42,686 nt of DNA from Escherichia phage PGT2, in sequence record NC_047890.1; one strand, written 5' to 3'. Each line of letters starts with the position of its first letter. Position 1 is the stretch's first letter. The notes under the pieces are model-generated. The model did no database searches, was not told the DNA's origin, and worked only from the letters and a program-made list of their open reading frames with translations. Shown one piece after another: positions 1 through 42,686 of this stretch. The translations under genes and the position numbers were made by a program.

Positions 1-260
1 TCCAACACAAATGAGGTCGCGTTTCCCCCGTAGGCCCGGCCTTCTGGATGGCTAAATGGCTGGATGGATGGATGGCTGGACGGCTAGACGTTTAGACGGC
101 TAAATGGCCAAATGACCGTAAAAAGGGCCGTGGGCACTGATAGGGTCAATCGGGCTGTAAGCCACGCCAACCGGGGTTTCCGCACATTACTTTATAAGAG
201 AGCTTGTAAGGTGTCTGGCGGCGATCCGTCTACGACGGGAGAAGGAAAGAGACGTGGGGT
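1..260. repeat. Left direct terminal repeat (DTR), 260 bp
   Basis: Bases 1-260 are identical to 42427-42686, checked block by block. The repeat runs to the window edge, so 260 bp is a minimum length. Confidence 0.9.
48..118. repeat. Array of short imperfect ~8-bp repeats (CTRRAYGG-like) inside the terminal repeat
   Basis: ggctaaatgg ctggatgg atggatgg ctggacgg ctagacgt ttagacgg ctaaatgg ccaaatga read directly. Resembles the short repeat series in T7 terminal repeats. Confidence 0.6.
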
Positions 261-452: not shown

Positions 453-656
453 ATGGCTATACGTAATTGGGCGGCGGTGCTGGCCATTGTGGATAGTGTG
501 GGGACTGAAGCGGCGTTATCCTTGCCGTATGTTCCGGCTGATGCTAACACTATGCCGGACCGGGCCAAAAGATATGCAATTGAGTACAACATACAACGGG
601 GGAAGTATGGCGAGACCTTGCCGGAAGTACCGACGTCGTGCACTTATCGGGATTGA
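453..656 (+). CDS. Hypothetical early protein (67 aa)
   Basis: ATG at 453 preceded by SD gaggtgag with 7-nt spacing; first ORF after the terminal repeat. Confidence 0.45.
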   Translation: MAIRNWAAVLAIVDSVGTEAALSLPYVPADANTMPDRAKRYAIEYNIQRGKYGETLPEVPTSCTYRD

Positions 657-1047
657 TGTATCCGGGTATCATCCGCCGGCTGTGGTCCGGAACTGGTTAA
701 GGGATACTTTAAGGGATGAATCCAAGGGACTAGCCGATCAGCTTATTTGTAAGCCGTGGGCTGTCTGGTTAGTTTGGGCGCATGATGAGATAGATAGTAA
801 GCGGGTCAGTCTTCTGTGCTGTGTAGGGGAGCGGCAAGCCTTAACTATTATGGATAACGCGGCCCGGCTTGACGGGTATCTGTGCCGGCTGTATCAGTCC
901 GATGGCGATGCGGTCGATATTAGTCATCTGTCCGAGTATAAATCGGTGCATAACTGGACCGGATACTGGAAGCATGTACACGGTGAGGATATGCCGATGA
1001 CGATTAGTGATGACGGATTGAGAAAGCTGCGGGAGATGATAGCATGA
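607..1047 (+). CDS. Hypothetical early protein (146 aa); possibly the C-terminal part of a frameshifted product with ORF 453-656
   Basis: ATG at 607 follows a G5 run (598-602); frame is +1 relative to ORF 453 and overlaps its 3' end; a strong terminator follows the stop. Confidence 0.35.
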   Translation: MARPCRKYRRRALIGIDVSGYHPPAVVRNWLRDTLRDESKGLADQLICKPWAVWLVWAHDEIDSKRVSLLCCVGERQALTIMDNAARLDGYLCRLYQSDGDAVDISHLSEYKSVHNWTGYWKHVHGEDMPMTISDDGLRKLREMIA

Positions 1048-1246: not shown

Positions 1247-1442
1247 TAATTTCAACGGCGGGGTAGTGGGAAGACAAGCCGATAAAATAGGATTCCCTCC
1301 ACATGGTCAGTTACCATAGGTCATCCGAGACACCAAACGGAATAACTAACAAGTAGTAACACCGGGGCAAGGAGGCCGCCTCGAAAGAGGAAAGTAGCTG
1401 GTAATGGCGTATGAAGCATTACCCCGGTGAGAAAGAAAGAGA

Positions 1443-1471
1443 TTGACAAGTTCAGAAGTAAGCAGTAAGAT
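1443..1471 (+). promoter_or_regulatory. Candidate sigma70 early promoter (TTGACA-17-TAAGAT)
   Basis: Consensus -35 ttgaca at 1443-1448; -10 taagat at 1466-1471; shares the upstream 18-mer aagaaagagattgacaag with the promoter at 1639. Confidence 0.45.
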
Positions 1472-1638
1472 GTAAATCAAGCAGTACGGGAGGAGGCGCA
1501 ACGGAAGGCGCGACACGGCGGGGAGTGATACAAGGACGCGCCAAAGGGAGAACGGATAGGAACTGCGAACCCTTCCGGATACCCGCTACGGATAGCACAG
1601 TTTGCCGGAGTATGCAGACACGGTAAGCAAGAAAGAGA

Positions 1639-1667
1639 TTGACAAGCTGGACAAGTTACCCGATAAT
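1639..1667 (+). promoter_or_regulatory. Candidate sigma70 early promoter (TTGACA-17-GATAAT)
   Basis: Consensus -35 ttgaca at 1639-1644; -10 gataat at 1662-1667; an RBS and small ORF follow. Confidence 0.55.
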
Positions 1668-1698
1668 AAGCTCAACGAATCGCAACGAGGAGAGAGAA

Positions 1699-1857
1699 AT
1701 GACTTACTACGAATCAGCAGAGAACGAGATGATCACCGCAGCACGCGCAGAAAAAGAAGTGCGCCGCCACGGTTGCAGCGTAGCAGAATTTTACGCAGAC
1801 TGCGGTACTCATGAGGAGTACGACGCACAAGCTGTGTTAGAATGGTTAGGGTACTAA
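1699..1857 (+). CDS. Small acidic early protein (52 aa)
   Basis: ATG at 1699 preceded by SD aggagag; lies downstream of the promoter at 1639; 11 acidic versus 4 K/R residues. Confidence 0.45.
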   Translation: MTYYESAENEMITAARAEKEVRRHGCSVAEFYADCGTHEEYDAQAVLEWLGY

Positions 1858-1878
1858 CAGAAAGTTTGAAGAAATAGG

Positions 1879-1907
1879 TTGACAAGTTAAGCAGTAAGCA
1901 GTAACCT
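1879..1907 (+). promoter_or_regulatory. Candidate sigma70 early promoter (TTGACA-17-TAACCT, weak -10)
   Basis: -35 ttgaca at 1879-1884; the spacer carries two AAGCAGTA copies, paralogous to the promoter at 1443. Confidence 0.35.
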
Positions 1908-2122
1908 AGAAAGCAAGCAGTACAGCAGTATCACAGCAGCCTAGAATAGGTTGAGTCGCACTCGGTGTGAATAGCTGACCTGACAGCGATATGGTTCAGG
2001 GGGGCCGGAGGATAGACAGTGACGTCGCCAATAAGCCCAACAAACGAAAGGTTTGTTAGTGTATCCTCACAGTAGGGTACAGCAACAAACTAACCGTAAA
2101 CGCAACGTAAACGAGGCGCACC

Positions 2123-2362
2123 ATGACTACACGTACAGAATACAACGGACACAAAAACAAAACTCACTGGAATGTAAGCCTTTGGATTAATAACGATGAG
2201 GCACTTTACCAGTTGGCAAGAGAATTTATCAACGATAACAATAACCGTAATGATGCGGCCCGCGCTATGGCGTTATTTTTAGCACAGTTGGGACAAGATA
2301 AAACGCCGGACGGATTCAAATACAGCGCTACGGCGATCCGCGCCGCTATGGTTGAGATGTAA
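2123..2362 (+). CDS. Hypothetical early protein (79 aa)
   Basis: ATG with SD acgagg at 6-nt spacing; first of a run of tightly packed same-strand early ORFs. Confidence 0.55.
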   Translation: MTTRTEYNGHKNKTHWNVSLWINNDEALYQLAREFINDNNNRNDAARAMALFLAQLGQDKTPDGFKYSATAIRAAMVEM

Positions 2363-2373
2363 GGAGGCACAGC

Positions 2374-2640
2374 ATGAAACTTTCAAAACAGACCGCGACC
2401 GATATTAGAAGCGCACTCATTGGCAAGGACGTGCCAGCTATCGCAAAGGCTTATCAGGAAAAAGGTTTATCATTCACTCGCTTCATATGGGACGCGTATC
2501 ACTCTATCGGCCACGCTAAGACCAACGAGATACTGACAGCTAACAACAAGCTGACAGTTATTGGTGGCTATGTAACCGATATTAATGACAGCCATATTGA
2601 AACAATGCTAAAACTAGCGTTCAAAGATTGTAAGTTTTAA
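2374..2640 (+). CDS. Hypothetical early protein (88 aa)
   Basis: ATG preceded by strong SD aaggagg. Confidence 0.6.
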   Translation: MKLSKQTATDIRSALIGKDVPAIAKAYQEKGLSFTRFIWDAYHSIGHAKTNEILTANNKLTVIGGYVTDINDSHIETMLKLAFKDCKF

Positions 2641-2682
2641 GATAGCGGCATACAAATAAACGCAACGTAAATGAGGCGCACC

Positions 2683-3177
2683 ATGAAAGTATTAATTTCT
2701 GCATTCCGTAAAGAAAACGATCTGTTAACCCATATCAATAATCACGCGGAATTATTCGACCGCATCACCGCATTAGGATTGACGCCGCAGCCCGTCGATG
2801 GCGTGTGGAAAGGTGTATCGGAGTTTTCTTACATGGTACACGGTGTTACCACAGCGATGCTCAAAGCGTTTTATGCAATGGCCCGCGACTACAATCAGGA
2901 GGCTATCTTGCTTGTTGCTGATGATAACCGTGCCGCAGTAGTGCCCACCGATGGCCCGGTGATGGCCCCGATGATTGACGTTGGCGACTGGAGGGAAGTA
3001 AGCAAAGAGATCGCGATACAATTTGACGGATACACCAAGACACGCGACGGCCGCTATTTTGTCGCCGCCACTCGTGAGCAGTTCGGCCTCGCCACTCGTC
3101 GGCTGTTAGCCACACAGATGGGCGTAATCGCTGCTAACGAATATGCAGCACGTGTAAACGCAGTGGGAGGATTATAA
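2683..3177 (+). CDS. Hypothetical early protein (164 aa)
   Basis: Start at the second ATG (2683), chosen because the 28-nt block before it is 27/28 identical to the leader of ORF 2123; the provided ORF track begins at the in-frame ATG at 2671. Confidence 0.55.
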   Translation: MKVLISAFRKENDLLTHINNHAELFDRITALGLTPQPVDGVWKGVSEFSYMVHGVTTAMLKAFYAMARDYNQEAILLVADDNRAAVVPTDGPVMAPMIDVGDWREVSKEIAIQFDGYTKTRDGRYFVAATREQFGLATRRLLATQMGVIAANEYAARVNAVGGL

Positions 3178-4622: not shown

Positions 4623-5132
4623 ATGACAAGCATCAATCCGGTAGACCTGACCACTTTAGGCGCACGAGTAACCGACCCGGCACAGTTGACAGAAGGCCGC
4701 TGGTATGTGGTCCGCGTTAACTGTAGAGGCTATACCCCACTGGTACACGCCAAATACTTGGGTATGAAAGGGCGCGCCTCACATGCGTTTGAGGTGTGCG
4801 ATGAGGATCATCTCGCGTTAAAGCGTTCTCTGGGCCTCGCCAAGCGCATCCACCGCGACAACGGTAGTATCCGCTCAGGGAAGATTGATGGCGGCGGTAT
4901 CTGCGAGATATTCAAGTTTAAGCAGGCGACAGCTACCCGATCCAATGCGCCGCAGCCCACCGCAACCTTATCCACAGTGGACCAATTCAAATCAGAGATT
5001 GACGCGTTACGTGCCAAGGCTACACAGAAGCGCGACCAGATTGCTCAGCTCTCAGAAGAGATTGCCGGGATTAACATCGCTATCTACGACACACGCAAGA
5101 AACTCAAAGCCAGCTTAGAGGGTTACATCTAA
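4623..5132 (+). CDS. Hypothetical early protein (169 aa)
   Basis: ATG two bases after the upstream stop; long ORF in the gene-dense early block. Confidence 0.55.
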   Translation: MTSINPVDLTTLGARVTDPAQLTEGRWYVVRVNCRGYTPLVHAKYLGMKGRASHAFEVCDEDHLALKRSLGLAKRIHRDNGSIRSGKIDGGGICEIFKFKQATATRSNAPQPTATLSTVDQFKSEIDALRAKATQKRDQIAQLSEEIAGINIAIYDTRKKLKASLEGYI

Positions 5133-19095: not shown

Positions 19096-19139
19096 TGATT
19101 TAGGGTATTTGTTAAATATGGCTTGAAGCCTTGATATAT

Positions 19140-19169
19140 GGGGTTTCCGCACATTATTTTAATAAGGGG
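19140..19169 (+). promoter_or_regulatory. Conserved 28-bp element GGGGTTTCCGCACATTAYTTTA(A)TAAGRG; candidate phage promoter or other regulatory site
   Basis: Near-identical copies at 173-200 and 42599-42626 (inside the terminal repeats); first 17 nt identical, then 1 mismatch and 1 indel. Confidence 0.4.
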
Positions 19170-35753: not shown

Positions 35754-38516
35754 ATGGCTATTACGTTTTATGCTACCAACAACTTCACTGGTGATGGTAC
35801 TACCGTAAACTGGAATATTAACTTCGCAGACGGTTATATCGACATCACCACCGTGAAGGCGCGGTATCTGGATAATACCGGGAGCTACGTTGACATCGCT
35901 ATTTCAAGCGTGGCAGGAAACGTAGTAACCATTTCCCCGGCTGTGGCGGACGGTCAGGAGTTCCAAATCTATCGTGATACAGAGAAGCGGTTCCCGCTGG
36001 TGGACTTCTCTGACGGTGCAATCCTCAACGAGACTAACCTTGACACGCTGGCTACTCAAGCTGTGATGGTGTCTGCTGAGGCATTCGACCAGTCTAACAA
36101 CGGTGTGCGTATCGCAGGTGATTCCTTGGTTGTTGCACAGGGTATCGACGCCAAGGCACAGGAAGCTCTGGACAACTCCGAGGCTGCTGTAGCTACAGCG
36201 AACGGTATCGACGGTAAAGCGCAGACGGCATTGAATACCGCCGCCGCCGCTGTCGCCACGGCTAATGCTGCCACATCTACTGCTGCTGGTGCTGTATCTA
36301 CGGCCAACACCGCACTGTCTACTGCCCACGATGCCGCCGATGACGCAGCTACCGCTATCACTACCGCTAACGGCGCTGTGATTACGGCCAATGCTGCAAC
36401 CACTACGGCCAACGCCGCTAGTGCTGCCGCCTCTGCTGCAACGACTACTGCGAACAGTGCTGCAAACGACGCTGCTACTGCTGTGTCTACTGCGGGTACG
36501 GCCTTGTCTACTGCGAACACCGCATCTACCAACGCCTCTACCGCTGTGTCCACGGCTAACGGCGCTAAGGCTACTGCTGAGGGTATCGAGGCTAAAGCGG
36601 ATTCTGCTTTGGCAGCCTCTGCTACCGCTGTGTCCACAGCTAACTCAGCCGAGGCTACGGCCAACGCTATCGACGGTAAGGCTACGGACGCATTAGACAC
36701 TGCCGACTCCGCTGTGGCTACGGCTAACGCTGCTGTTTCTACGGCTAACTCTGCTACTGCTACGGCTAATGCTGCCTCTTCTACTGCGAGTTCGGCTGCC
36801 TCTGACGCCAGTACCGCCTTGAGCACAGCTAATGCTATTGACGCAAAGGCACAGACTGCTTTGGATAATACCACGGCTCTGGATGCGGCCACCATGAAGA
36901 AAGCCGCCAACTTATCTGATATTGCGGATAAGGCGGCTGCATGGCTTAACGTCCGTCCTATTGGCTCCACGCCATTGGCAGGCGACCCGGTAGGGGATTA
37001 CGATGCTGTTACTAAGCGTTGGGTAGAGAACCTGATTAACACAGGTACTGTCGGTCCAACCATGAACGGGGTGATGAACTTCGGCGTCGGTGACTTCCAT
37101 CTCCGGGATAGCCGCGCGTACATCCAGCCTTATGAGGTTGTCTCTGACGGTCAGTTACTGAACCGCGCTGACTGGCCTGAACTTTGGGCCTACGCCCAAA
37201 TGCTGTCGCCTATAACGGATGCAGCTTGGTTGGCAGACCCTCTCAAGCGCGGCGCTTACTCTACCGGAAACGGAACCACTACCTTCCGAGTACCGGATAG
37301 GAACGGTGTTCAGTCAGGCTCTGTAAGGGCGCTTTTTGGGCGTGGTGACGGTGGGAACTCTTCTATCGGCAGTACCATCATGGAGTCCTTCGTACCGAAT
37401 ATCACGGCTACGTTAAATATGCACGGTGCTGGTCCCGCATCAGAACCTGCCGCTGGTACTAACGTGGCAGGATTTGGTGGTGCCTTGGTTGCTACGGGAG
37501 AGGCTCTCCCGAGATACCTGCGTGGGGTTACTCTGTTATCTGCTGGTGGTAACTCCTATGGTGGAGCTACCTTCGATGCCTCCCGTTCCAGTGCTGCTTA
37601 TGGTCGTGGTGGTCTGACTACGGATGAGGTTCTGCCGCGTAACTTCACTGGTGTATGGGTAATTCGTGCATCTGGCGGCTTCGTAGCGGCTAATACGCAG
37701 TGGCAGGTTATAAACCAAGATGCGACTAGGCCCGGTAACGGTACTGCCGTCTTAGGTGGTAATATTGTATCTGAGTACCGCGTTGGTGGTGCCTTGGAGG
37801 GTACAGCAAACTTCCGTATGGCGGGTACTATCGATGGTTCGTATGGCGCGCGCATTGCTGTTTATAATGCCACATCTTTAAATGGCGCCAGCTTCGATTT
37901 TACAGAGCACGGGAACATAGAGACTCCCCTTGGTAGGGCTATTGTTATAGGCAACTATGGTATAGGTTCGCAAGCAGATGCTATACCTACTTCGAGGGAT
38001 AACGCATTTATCTCTAACGCTGATAGTAATAGTTCTTGGTCTGCTTCTAACGGGGGTGGCTTTCAAATTACATATGCAGCTAACCGTATCGTCCAGTTCT
38101 GGGTAAGTCAAGGTGGTACTACGGCTTATTTCCGTGCTAATAGCACAGACAGTAACCCCCAACGACCGAAGTCTGCATCTCCTTGGGTCACACTCCAGAA
38201 TGCTGGTACTTCGGACGCTAATGTAAAAACCGTCCTCGGTGACTTAGACTTATCTATACCGTTGAGTAATATCAACGCACTGGAGTTTAAGAAATTCCGC
38301 TACAACAAGGATGGTGAGGATGGCCCGGTTCGACGGGGCATTATCGCGCAGCAGGCGCAGAATGTGGACCCGGAGTACGTACATTCTGCGGATAAGTCCG
38401 GGGTTATGACTCTTGATAGTAACCCGCTGCTGTTGGATGCTCTAGCTGCTGTCAAAGCACTATCTGCTAAAGTGGCCGCTCTGGAAGAGCGTATTGATGA
38501 ACTAACTTCTCAGTAA
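35754..38516 (+). CDS. Tail fiber protein: T7 gp17-like N-terminal adaptor, Ala/Thr/Ser-rich repeat shaft, C-terminal intramolecular chaperone domain
   Basis: N-terminus LVDFSDGAILNETNLDTLATQAVMVSAEA parallels T7 gp17 [29 protein letters not shown]; C-terminus GIIAQQAQ...LAAVKALSAKVAALEERIDELT is chaperone-like; ORF track start 35742 is a TTG. Confidence 0.8.
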   Translation: MAITFYATNNFTGDGTTVNWNINFADGYIDITTVKARYLDNTGSYVDIAISSVAGNVVTISPAVADGQEFQIYRDTEKRFPLVDFSDGAILNETNLDTLATQAVMVSAEAFDQSNNGVRIAGDSLVVAQGIDAKAQEALDNSEAAVATANGIDGKAQTALNTAAAAVATANAATSTAAGAVSTANTALSTAHDAADDAATAITTANGAVITANAATTTANAASAAASAATTTANSAANDAATAVSTAGTALSTANTASTNASTAVSTANGAKATAEGIEAKADSALAASATAVSTANSAEATANAIDGKATDALDTADSAVATANAAVSTANSATATANAASSTASSAASDASTALSTANAIDAKAQTALDNTTALDAATMKKAANLSDIADKAAAWLNVRPIGSTPLAGDPVGDYDAVTKRWVENLINTGTVGPTMNGVMNFGVGDFHLRDSRAYIQPYEVVSDGQLLNRADWPELWAYAQMLSPITDAAWLADPLKRGAYSTGNGTTTFRVPDRNGVQSGSVRALFGRGDGGNSSIGSTIMESFVPNITATLNMHGAGPASEPAAGTNVAGFGGALVATGEALPRYLRGVTLLSAGGNSYGGATFDASRSSAAYGRGGLTTDEVLPRNFTGVWVIRASGGFVAANTQWQVINQDATRPGNGTAVLGGNIVSEYRVGGALEGTANFRMAGTIDGSYGARIAVYNATSLNGASFDFTEHGNIETPLGRAIVIGNYGIGSQADAIPTSRDNAFISNADSNSSWSASNGGGFQITYAANRIVQFWVSQGGTTAYFRANSTDSNPQRPKSASPWVTLQNAGTSDANVKTVLGDLDLSIPLSNINALEFKKFRYNKDGEDGPVRRGIIAQQAQNVDPEYVHSADKSGVMTLDSNPLLLDALAAVKALSAKVAALEERIDELTSQ
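36100..36900. repeat. Imperfect tandem codon repeats (STAN/ATAN units) inside the tail fiber gene
   Basis: About 16 copies of nCyACnGCnAAy (encoding x-T-A-N) at roughly 7-, 11- and 14-residue spacing. Confidence 0.7.
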
Positions 38517-42426: not shown

Positions 42427-42686
42427 TCCAACACAAATGAGGTCGCGTTTCCCCCGTAGGCCCGGCCTTCTGGATGGCTAAATGGCTGGATGGATGGATG
42501 GCTGGACGGCTAGACGTTTAGACGGCTAAATGGCCAAATGACCGTAAAAAGGGCCGTGGGCACTGATAGGGTCAATCGGGCTGTAAGCCACGCCAACCGG
42601 GGTTTCCGCACATTACTTTATAAGAGAGCTTGTAAGGTGTCTGGCGGCGATCCGTCTACGACGGGAGAAGGAAAGAGACGTGGGGT
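42427..42686. repeat. Right direct terminal repeat (DTR), 260 bp
   Basis: Exact copy of 1-260. Confidence 0.9.

What the first reader, a model, noticed from the sequence alone, without database searches (positions are those of the whole stretch)
2098..2685. 28-nt translation-initiation block duplicated in front of two unrelated early genes
AAACGCAACGTAAACGAGGCGCACCATG (2098-2125) and AAACGCAACGTAAATGAGGCGCACCATG (2658-2685) are 27/28 identical and cover the SD and start codon of ORF 2123 and ORF 2683, whose products are unrelated. This suggests a conserved regulatory or processing site, or a recombination footprint.
Basis: seen in the sequence. Interest (0 to 1): 0.4.

Follow-up and report, generated by a model that had tools for sequence, protein, structure and literature searches.

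The report
Repeated start-site block flanking gene cassettes
A 30-base stretch holding the ribosome-binding site sits in front of unrelated early genes of coliphage PGT2 because small genes are gained and lost from the phage's first operon at this block, which relatives keep almost unchanged.

Summary
The repeat is real. It is 30 nt (2097-2126 and 2657-2686), 29/30 identical, and no shuffle produced it. The window is the whole genome of Escherichia phage PGT2 (Ermolevavirus, T7-like).

The block is the leader, Shine-Dalgarno site and ATG of the SAM lyase, the first immediate-early gene. All relatives fetched keep it, including one whose SAM lyase is only 59% identical. phiKT and several metagenomic relatives have one copy directly before the SAM lyase. 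Two relatives have block-B-block-SAM lyase. PGT2 and one other have block-A-B-block-SAM lyase.

The block therefore precedes three unrelated genes, always joined at ATGA. Close relatives differ by clean indels whose ends fall inside the repeats. Shorter copies of its 3' half flank further single-gene indels.

The block is better conserved than the genes around it. Its few substitutions preserve a small hairpin holding the SD, with two compensatory pairs. That evidence is suggestive only.

Best reading: a selected translation-initiation module that also serves as the homology joint for gene-cassette gain and loss. It works like the PeSL cassettes of T4-type phages but has no promoter or terminator. 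Recognition by an RNase or RNA-binding protein is untested. This is a moderately interesting new variant of a known kind.

The parts
2097..2126 (+). Block copy 1: TAAACGCAACGTAAACGAGGCGCACCATGA. It is the leader, SD (2113-2116) and ATG (2123-2125) of gene A. Predicted hairpin pairs: 2101-2118, 2102-2117, 2103-2116, 2106-2113, 2107-2112.
   Evidence: Identical in relative L016. Its upstream context matches that of the single block of L009 and L012.
2123..2362 (+). Gene A, 79 aa, DUF7249/phrog_871, function unknown. Among ermolevaviruses it is present only in PGT2 and L016; otherwise it is a gene of large myoviruses.
   Evidence: Its homologues in Phapecoctavirus and Asteriusvirus have their own promoter and stem-loop and no block.
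2361..2376 (+). Partial third copy of the block (3' half): AAGGAGGCACAGCATG, the SD, spacer and ATG of gene B. The stop codon of gene A (2360-2362) abuts it.
   Evidence: 14/16 identical to block positions 14-29 of L024 copy 1. PGT2 2361-3167 aligns without gaps to L024 1025-1831, while PGT2 1869-2126 aligns to L024 786-1041. Gene A is therefore an insertion flanked by repeats of the block's 3' half.
2374..2640 (+). Gene B, 88 aa, phrog_9817, function unknown. Its relatives lie in the early regions of other Autographiviridae (Klebsiella phage KL01, 86% aa identity).
2641..2656 (+). Spacer between gene B and block copy 2. It is poorly conserved. Its first bases, GATAGC, match the sequence after gene B in KL01-type phages.
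   Evidence: 56-75% identity among PGT2, L016, L024 and L025, against 87-100% for the adjoining block. KL01 sequence.
2657..2686 (+). Block copy 2: TAAACGCAACGTAAATGAGGCGCACCATGA. It is the leader, SD (2673-2676) and ATG (2683-2685) of the SAM lyase. The C-to-T change at 2672 turns a G:C pair into G:U and creates an in-frame upstream ATG at 2671.
   Evidence: Homology with phiKT starts exactly at 2657. The same T is present in copy 2 of L016.
2683..3177 (+). SAM lyase gene (T3 gene 0.3-type anti-restriction enzyme), 164 aa. This is the gene that carries the block in every relative.
   Evidence: Pfam PF23780, E=7.5e-24. 96% identical to phiKT ORF30. Cluster members listed.
3155..3162 (+). TAAACGCA inside the last codons of the SAM lyase. 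It matches the 5' end of the block. In 163-aa-type relatives, this position plus the next gene's start region forms a diverged full-length block copy (block').
   Evidence: Covariance-model hits at L009 4473-4506 (E=1e-7), L027 1836-1869 and L025 4782-4815. The 8-mer occurs only 4 times on the + strand of PGT2. In PGT2 itself only this 8-mer remains, so the assignment here is weak.
2044..2097 (+). Predicted long interrupted hairpin in the 5' UTR. It ends at the first base of block copy 1, the same position as the RNase III site R0.3 of phage T3.
   Evidence: RNAfold minimum-free-energy and centroid structures. The T3 annotation places R0.3 25 nt before the SAMase ATG. The RNase III function is inferred, not tested.
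1433..1928 (+). Three repeated sigma-70-type early promoters with TTGACA at 1443, 1639 and 1879. They drive the operon that starts with the block.
   Evidence: (D2, D3, D10).

Best explanation
The block is the translation-initiation module of the first immediate-early gene of ermolevaviruses. It has an A/C-rich leader, an SD (GAGG) held in a weak 5-bp hairpin, a 6-nt spacer and the ATG. Selection keeps it nearly invariant because it sets how the first incoming genes are translated. Because it is conserved, it is also the stretch of homology at which single-ORF cassettes enter and leave the head of the early operon. A cassette flanked by two copies can be deleted by recombination between them. 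A cassette carrying one copy can integrate at a resident copy, which leaves block-gene-block. PGT2 carries two full copies and one half copy because two such events left genes A and B in front of the SAM lyase, each gene keeping a copy as its own start site. Shown: the repeat, its conservation, the presence/absence polymorphisms with ends inside the repeats, and substitutions compatible with the hairpin. Inferred: that the block is a strong or tuned start site, that the hairpin matters, that recombination is homologous between blocks (possibly through circles), and the order of events.
For: (1) Every relative keeps one block before the SAM lyase: phiKT, L009-L015, L027/L028 and the distant L007. 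(2) The block precedes three unrelated genes, always joined at ATGA: gene A in PGT2 and L016, gene B in L024 and L025, and the SAM lyase everywhere. (3) The sequence upstream of the block falls into at least 5 unrelated UTR contexts, plus the post-gene-B spacers, and similarity begins at base 1 of the block. (4) Blocks are 87-100% identical where adjoining genes are 80-91% and the spacer 56-75%. In L007 the block is 83-87% identical (25/30 to copy 2, 26/30 to copy 1), the coding sequence 64%, and the upstream sequence unalignable. (5) L024 (with B) and L009/L012 (without B) are 100%/93% identical over the upstream 60 nt and 96-97% in the SAM lyase. The single block of L009 aligns to both blocks of L024. 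(6) Gene A is flanked by the block and a 16-nt half copy. Gene F of L025 is flanked by 14-nt GGGGCACACCATGA repeats. The SAM lyase itself is flanked by the block and a diverged block'. (7) The hairpin is predicted in every context. Across 8 distinct copies, pairs 5-22 and 6-21 each show one compensatory double change, pair 11-16 changes G:C to G:U, and none is broken. 7 of 500 shuffles reach this. (8) PGT2's SAM lyase is closer to that of phiKT (91%) than to that of L016 (87%), although L016 shares A and B. This indicates exchange at block copy 2.
Against: There is no expression, RNA-end or recombination data. Whether each polymorphism is a gain or a loss cannot be decided. The hairpin evidence rests on 8 distinct sequences and two double changes, all transitions, and the hairpin is weak (-4.8 kcal/mol, z=-0.8). 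Half copies lacking the 5' arm also serve as start sites, so the role of block positions 1-13 is unexplained. Thirty bases is short for homologous recombination. The very first joining of each foreign ORF to the block must have been illegitimate; a 9-nt microhomology, ATCATGAAA, exists for gene B. Only about ten genomes of the group could be examined.
Confidence: 0.65

Rival explanations
1. The block is a specific RNA signal. Under this view the hairpin with its UAAA loop and flanking bases is bound by a phage or host protein, or cut by an RNase, and this coordinates the translation or decay of whichever immediate-early genes carry it. The duplication would be selected so that new genes join that regulon.
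For: Conservation extends 16 nt upstream of the SD, further than a generic ribosome-binding site needs. The substitutions preserve the hairpin. The block begins where a long RNase III-like hairpin ends, as in the T3 R0.3-SAMase layout.
Against: No binding protein or cleavage is known. There is no Rfam match, even at E<=1. Copy 2 has no long hairpin upstream. Other cassettes use only the 3' half. Similarity to the T3 leader is weak (p=0.007-0.23).
Confidence: 0.2
2. The block is a neutral scar. Under this view the repeat is only the by-product of one insertion, made by template switching or unequal crossing-over, and has no role beyond a generic SD. It persists because too little time has passed.
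For: The duplication coincides with an indel relative to phiKT. Duplications at insertion joints are common.
Against: The duplicated state is shared by lineages whose genes A and B have diverged by 9-19% while the blocks stayed 93-100% identical and the spacer fell to 56-75%. The block survives at 83-87% (25/30 and 26/30) in a phage whose SAM lyase coding sequence is only 64% identical. The changes seen are compensatory. The diagnostic T of copy 2 is shared by PGT2 and L016, so the copies are old and evolve separately.
Confidence: 0.1
3. The copies are alike through concerted evolution (repeated gene conversion between start regions) or through convergence on an optimal start sequence, rather than through descent from cassette events.
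For: Position 25 (C or T) tends to match within a genome: both copies are C in PGT2 and both are T in L025. Looser versions of the motif, TAAATGAGGAC.CAGA.CATG, occur before other early genes.
Against: A 30-nt identity cannot arise by convergence. Copy-specific differences persist across genomes: T16 in copy 2 of PGT2 and L016, and T5/A22 only in L024 copy 1. The indel ends fall in the repeats.
Confidence: 0.05

Closest known systems
PeSL (promoter-early stem-loop) mobile regulatory cassettes of T4-type phages (Arbiol et al. 2010, PMC2839356; Comeau et al. 2014, PMC4122927)
   Same: Both are short conserved regulatory sequences repeated in front of unrelated, non-essential early genes. In both, indels and replacements between close relatives have their ends in the repeats. 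In both cases the proposed mechanism is homologous recombination between repeats, possibly through excised circles.
   Different: PeSLs consist of a sigma-70 promoter plus a terminator stem-loop and act on transcription. The block has neither. It is an SD/ATG module inside one operon, so its joints lie exactly at start codons and the cassettes are bare ORFs. It occurs in a T7-like podovirus. No circles have been looked for.
Gene 0.3 leader of phages T3 and T7 (three A promoters, RNase III site R0.3, a short leader, then the first anti-restriction gene)
   Same: The layout is the same: three early promoters, a long hairpin, a leader of about 25 nt, and the SAM lyase as first gene. T3 and T7 share the leader ...GAGGTAACAC... 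in front of unrelated genes, SAMase and Ocr. A conserved start region with the ORF swapped at the ATG therefore has a precedent between genomes.
   Different: In T3 and T7 the leader occurs once per genome. Here it is duplicated within a genome and marks several serial insertions. Sequence similarity of the block to the T3 leader is not convincing.
Deletion between short direct repeats in T7 (Pierce and Masker 1989, Mol Gen Genet 217:215, reference seen in PMC5449768; the dependence on repeat length is from my memory)
   Same: A 30-bp direct repeat 309-560 bp apart in a T7-like genome is the type of substrate that those studies showed to delete. The one-block relatives look like the expected products.
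   Different: Those were engineered repeats and laboratory deletions. Here the repeat is a functional start site that persists in diverged lineages, which implies selection for the enclosed genes.
Conserved linker or boundary sequences at gene junctions in mosaic lambdoid phages (modular theory of Susskind and Botstein; from my knowledge, not checked here)
   Same: Both involve short conserved sequences at gene boundaries where mosaic segments meet.
   Different: The boundary role of those sequences is debated and they are not start-site hairpins. Here both edges of the conserved block coincide with the joints in several independent comparisons.

Membership tests
Shine-Dalgarno translation initiation region | A purine-rich match to the 16S rRNA 3' end, 5-9 nt upstream of the start codon of a real gene | tested here: met
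   GAGG lies 6 nt before the ATG in both copies. The ORFs behind them belong to conserved families and their starts are conserved in relatives.
Shine-Dalgarno translation initiation region | Ribosome binding and initiation demonstrated at this site | not testable with these tools
   This needs toeprinting, reporter fusions or ribosome profiling of infected cells.
PeSL mobile regulatory cassettes (T4-type phages) | Contains a strong sigma-70-like early promoter | tested here: not met
   The promoter scan lists no site at 2097-2126 or 2657-2686. The block has no TTGACA/TATAAT pair.
PeSL mobile regulatory cassettes (T4-type phages) | Contains a stem-loop that terminates transcription | tested here: not met
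   The block has only a 5-bp interrupted hairpin of -4.8 kcal/mol with no T-run. The terminator scan reports none there.
PeSL mobile regulatory cassettes (T4-type phages) | Repeated before unrelated early genes, with indels between close relatives bounded by the repeats | tested here: met
PeSL mobile regulatory cassettes (T4-type phages) | Recombination between neighbouring copies yields small circular DNAs | not testable with these tools
   This needs outward-facing PCR or read-level analysis of PGT2 lysates.
RNase III processing site of T7-group early mRNAs (R0.3 type) | A hairpin of about 50 nt with two stems around an internal loop | tested here: not met
   The block itself forms only 5 pairs. 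A separate upstream hairpin at 2044-2097 has this shape, but copy 2 has none.
RNase III processing site of T7-group early mRNAs (R0.3 type) | Cleavage by RNase III | not testable with these tools
   This needs 5'-end mapping in wild-type and rnc hosts.
Target-site duplication of a transposable element or homing cassette | Fixed-length duplication flanking an element that has terminal repeats and its own transposase, integrase or nuclease | tested here: not met
   The repeat lengths differ between events: 30, 16 and 14 nt. Genes A and B are 79 and 88 aa with no enzyme domain and no PDB fold match.
Phage RNA polymerase promoter | A conserved motif of about 20 nt recurring many times before middle and late genes | tested here: not met
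   There are only two copies in 42.7 kb, even at 3 mismatches.
Known structured RNA families (Rfam 15) | A match to a curated covariance model | tested here: not met
   No hit at gathering score over the whole window, and none at E<=1 for 1880-2760.

The most novel reading that the evidence does not exclude
The head of the early operon of these T7-like phages may be an integron-like array. In that reading, a structured 30-nt start-site cassette serves both as the expression signal and as the dedicated recombination site through which bare ORFs, probably counter-defence genes, are captured from unrelated phages, stacked in front of the SAM lyase and shed again. The hairpin could additionally be read by a specific protein or RNase.
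Probability: 0.25. Interest if true: 0.65.

Novelty: new variant of a known kind. Interest (0 to 1): 0.45.

Why it matters
The first genes to enter the cell decide whether a T7-like phage survives host defences. The SAM lyase here is the counterpart of T3 SAMase, described as the first viral protein made on infection (PMC8406200) and as a counter-defence enzyme (PMC7877911).

If new ORFs are slotted in at a conserved start-site block, two things follow. First, the block is a practical marker for finding candidate counter-defence genes. Here these are DUF7249 and phrog_9817, both of unknown function, and the first is shared at 80-87% nucleotide identity with large myoviruses. Second, it shows how a compact operon without internal promoters can exchange single genes while every gene stays translatable. 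This extends repeat-mediated modular shuffling from transcription signals (PeSLs) to translation signals.

It also predicts that PGT2 stocks are genetically unstable at this locus, which matters for anyone using the phage.

Tried and rejected
- **Chance or assembly artefact:** rejected (independent assemblies).
- **Pattern scans:** my first scans required ...GGCGCAC and would have missed the common GGCGCAT variant. I repeated them with a degenerate pattern. Nothing beyond PGT2 and phiKT turned up in IMG/VR, JGI metagenomes or GTDB genomes. All further relatives came from Logan/ENA contigs reached through proteins, so the block's true distribution is under-sampled.
- **Host origin:** no match in 5,426 E. 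coli genomes and none in other GenBank phages.
- **Known RNA family:** none.
- **Phage-polymerase promoter:** rejected, only two copies.
- **Transposon-type target duplication:** rejected, because repeat lengths vary and there is no enzyme.
- **Homology of the block to the T3 SAMase leader:** weak and not convincing.
- **Function of genes A and B:** confident AlphaFold models (pLDDT about 89) have no PDB match, and no paper mentions DUF7249.
- **PGT2 genome announcement (PMC5773715):** it does not mention the repeat.
- **A conserved small ORF across the block:** excluded by the unrelated upstream contexts.
- **SAM lyase profile search of IMG/VR:** found only the same two genomes.

Full report
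**Observation.** No match arose in 100 shuffles. The repeat is 30 nt, 2097-2126 and 2657-2686, 29/30 identical and 560 nt apart (D7, D13). Each copy ends in GAGG, six bases and the ATG plus A of an ORF. ORF 2123-2362 (gene A below) is DUF7249/phrog_871. ORF 2683-3177 is an S-adenosylmethionine lyase (PF23780). ORF 2374-2640 between them (gene B) is phrog_9817. The three proteins are unrelated.

**What the window is.** The window is the complete 42,686-bp genome of Escherichia phage PGT2 with its 260-bp terminal repeat. PGT2 is a T7-like podovirus of the genus Ermolevavirus, whose only other isolate is phiKT (PMC5773715). The block lies at the head of the early operon, downstream of three repeated sigma-70 promoters (D2, D3, D10) and a structured 5' UTR of about 200 nt. 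T3 has the same layout: promoters A1-A3, RNase III site R0.3, a 25-nt leader, then the SAMase gene.

**Relatives.** phiKT has a single block (one mismatch) directly before its SAM lyase and lacks A and B. I reached more relatives through the SAM lyase and gene B proteins in Logan/ENA assemblies. Three arrangements occur.
- Block-SAM lyase: phiKT, L009-L013, L014/L015, L027/L028 and the distant L007, whose SAM lyase is 59% identical in protein.
- Block-B-block-SAM lyase: L024 and L025.
- Block-A-B-block-SAM lyase: PGT2 and L016.

The same 30 nt therefore precede three unrelated genes, and the joint is always at ATGA. On the other side, similarity among genomes begins at the first base of the block. 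The sequence upstream falls into at least five unrelated UTR contexts, plus the spacers that follow gene B.

**Conservation.** Between PGT2 and L016, L024 or L025 the blocks are 87-100% identical. Genes A, B and the SAM lyase are 80-91% identical, and the 16-nt spacer after B is only 56-75%. In L007 the block is 25/30 identical to copy 2 (83%) and 26/30 to copy 1, against 64% for the coding sequence and nothing alignable upstream. Copy 2 of PGT2 and of L016 share a diagnostic T at position 16. The two copies are therefore old, evolve separately, and are each kept. This excludes a recent neutral scar.

**Structure.** RNAfold places the SD in a small hairpin, with block positions 5-7 paired to 20-22 and positions 10-11 paired to 16-17 around a UAAA loop. 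The energy is -4.8 kcal/mol. The same hairpin is predicted in all five upstream contexts folded, although it is not significant by energy alone. Among 12 copies (8 distinct):
- L024 copy 1 carries C5U with G22A.
- L007 carries G6A with C21U, plus C23U, which adds an A4:U23 pair.
- Copy 2 of PGT2 and L016 changes G11:C16 to G:U.
- L025 copy 2 changes only the internal loop (GAGG to GGAG).
- No pair is broken.

Seven of 500 column shuffles reach the observed covariation, and slid registers score far lower. This is suggestive, not proof. The numbers are small and all changes are transitions. The region as a whole folds less stably than shuffled sequence (z=+1.1 and +2.0), as expected for an accessible start site.

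**The block as a recombination joint.** L024 (with B) and L009/L012 (without B) are 100%/93% identical over the 60 nt upstream and 96-97% identical in the SAM lyase. In BLAST, the single block of L009 (3971-4010) aligns to both blocks of L024, and the same holds for L025 against L012. This is the signature of a deletion or integration between direct repeats. PGT2's SAM lyase is closer to that of phiKT (91%) than to that of L016 (87%), which shares A and B, and PGT2-phiKT homology starts exactly at 2657. Sequence has therefore been exchanged at copy 2.

**Shorter copies mark further events.**
- PGT2 2361-2376 (AAGGAGGCACAGCATG, the start region of B) is 14/16 identical to block positions 14-29 of L024. 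PGT2 aligns to L024 on both sides of gene A with a 17-nt overlap on the block. Gene A was therefore inserted behind the block in front of B.
- In L025 an 83-aa gene absent from L012 is flanked by 14-nt GGGGCACACCATGA repeats.
- In L027 a different DUF7249 allele (62% identical) sits downstream of the SAM lyase behind TAAGGGGCGCATCATG.
- A covariance model of the block finds a diverged full-length copy spanning the last codons of the 163-aa SAM lyases and the next gene's start: UAAACGCAGC, 10 nt, GGGGCGCAUCAUGA (E=1e-7 to 2e-4). The SAM lyase itself is thus bracketed. In PGT2 only TAAACGCA (3155-3162) remains of that copy.

**Origin of the cassettes.** Gene A is 80-87% identical in nucleotide sequence to genes of Phapecoctavirus and Asteriusvirus myoviruses. 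There it has its own promoter and stem-loop and no block. Gene B is closest to early genes of other Autographiviridae such as KL01, which have a different ribosome-binding site. The sequence after its stop, TAAGATAGC, came along with it. The KL01-type start (ctATCATGAAAc) and the block-SAM lyase joint (gcATCATGAAAg) share 9 nt. This is a plausible microhomology for the first, illegitimate joining.

**Mechanism.** The following are shown: a conserved start-site block, its presence before three unrelated genes, clean indels with ends in the repeats, and hairpin-compatible substitutions. The rest is inferred. I infer that the block is kept because it governs translation of the first incoming genes. 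I infer that once an ORF has been joined to it, homologous recombination between blocks moves, stacks or deletes cassettes, either within concatemers or via excised circles as proposed for PeSLs. The variable repeat lengths (30, 16 and 14 nt) argue against an enzyme-defined target duplication and for recombination filtered by selection for translatable genes. T7 is known to delete DNA between short direct repeats (Pierce and Masker 1989, reference seen in PMC5449768). The persistence of the 30-bp repeat in diverged lineages therefore implies that A and B are useful.

**Comparison with what is known.** The closest analogues are the PeSL cassettes of T4-type phages (PMC2839356, PMC4122927). The logic is the same, but the block fails the two defining features of a PeSL, promoter and terminator. 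It works like a PeSL without being one. The T3/T7 gene 0.3 locus is a between-genome precedent, where a shared leader precedes the unrelated SAMase and Ocr genes. The block is not an RNase III site, a phage promoter, a transposon scar, a host sequence or an Rfam family.

**Verdict.** The finding is a new variant of a known kind, repeat-mediated modular shuffling acting here through a translation signal in a T7-like phage. It is of moderate interest. Its practical value is as a marker for candidate counter-defence genes, and it makes a clear, cheap experimental prediction: block-to-block deletions and circles in PGT2 lysates.

Noticed in passing
window 1433-1492, 1621-1667, 1869-1928: There are three repeated early promoters (AAGAAAGAGATTGACAAG...). 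The segment between the second and third (1631-1878) holds a 52-aa ORF (1699-1857, phrog_25588). That segment is replaced by 83 unrelated bases in phiKT, and the ORF is present in L012 and L025 but not in L009. This looks like a promoter-flanked cassette, closer to a true PeSL.
   Followed up: partly
window 2044-2097: A predicted long interrupted hairpin (8 bp, internal loop, 8 bp) ends at the first base of block copy 1, in the position of T3's RNase III site R0.3. Relatives with other UTRs also have a long hairpin followed by an A/C-rich single-stranded tract before the block.
   Followed up: partly
window 2671-2685: The C-to-T change in copy 2 creates an in-frame ATG 12 nt upstream of the SAM lyase start (MRRTM...). 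The same change is present in L016. There is no SD before this ATG, so it is probably unused.
   Followed up: no
L004 1100-1185 and 1430-1515; L005 1095-1180 and 1775-1860: In Phapecoctavirus and Asteriusvirus myoviruses, the gene A homologue and its neighbours each sit behind their own TTGACA/TATAAT promoter and a GC-rich stem-loop. These are PeSL-like arrays outside the T4-type phages.
   Followed up: no
L025 4802-5085: An 83-aa gene (4812-5063), absent from L012, is flanked by 14-nt GGGGCACACCATGA direct repeats. A TAAACGCA 8-mer lies 55 nt before the second repeat (model hit, E=0.018).
   Followed up: partly
L029 (T3) 457-504 and L030 (T7) 101-148: T3 and T7 share the end of R0.3 and the leader ...GAGGTAACAC... 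although their gene 0.3 products (SAMase and Ocr) are unrelated. The homology break is at or near the start codon.
   Followed up: partly
window 45-116 and 255-345: Short-period repeat arrays lie in and just after the 260-bp terminal repeat: TGGATGGC-type units with 8-nt spacing, then CTATCT runs.
   Followed up: no
window 148-194, 19115-19161, 42574-42620: A 47-nt element ending GGGGTTTCCGCACATTACTTTA occurs in the terminal repeat and, at 74% identity, in mid-genome. It may be a phage-polymerase promoter or a replication signal.
   Followed up: no
window 453-1047 and 1052-1080: Two ORFs with no family match (67 aa; 146 aa if started at 607) lie to the left of the early promoters. A strong terminator-like hairpin with a T-run follows them.
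   Followed up: no
window 3505, 4285; L009 5126: Other early genes use looser versions of the same start motif, for example TTAAATGAGGACACAGAGCATG and AAAAACGTGAGG. The start-site family may therefore be wider than the 30-nt block.
   Followed up: partly
window 36244-36829: Extensive 21-nt-periodic repeats rich in GCT/ACT codons (Ala/Thr/Ser) lie within a late gene, probably the tail fibre.
   Followed up: no
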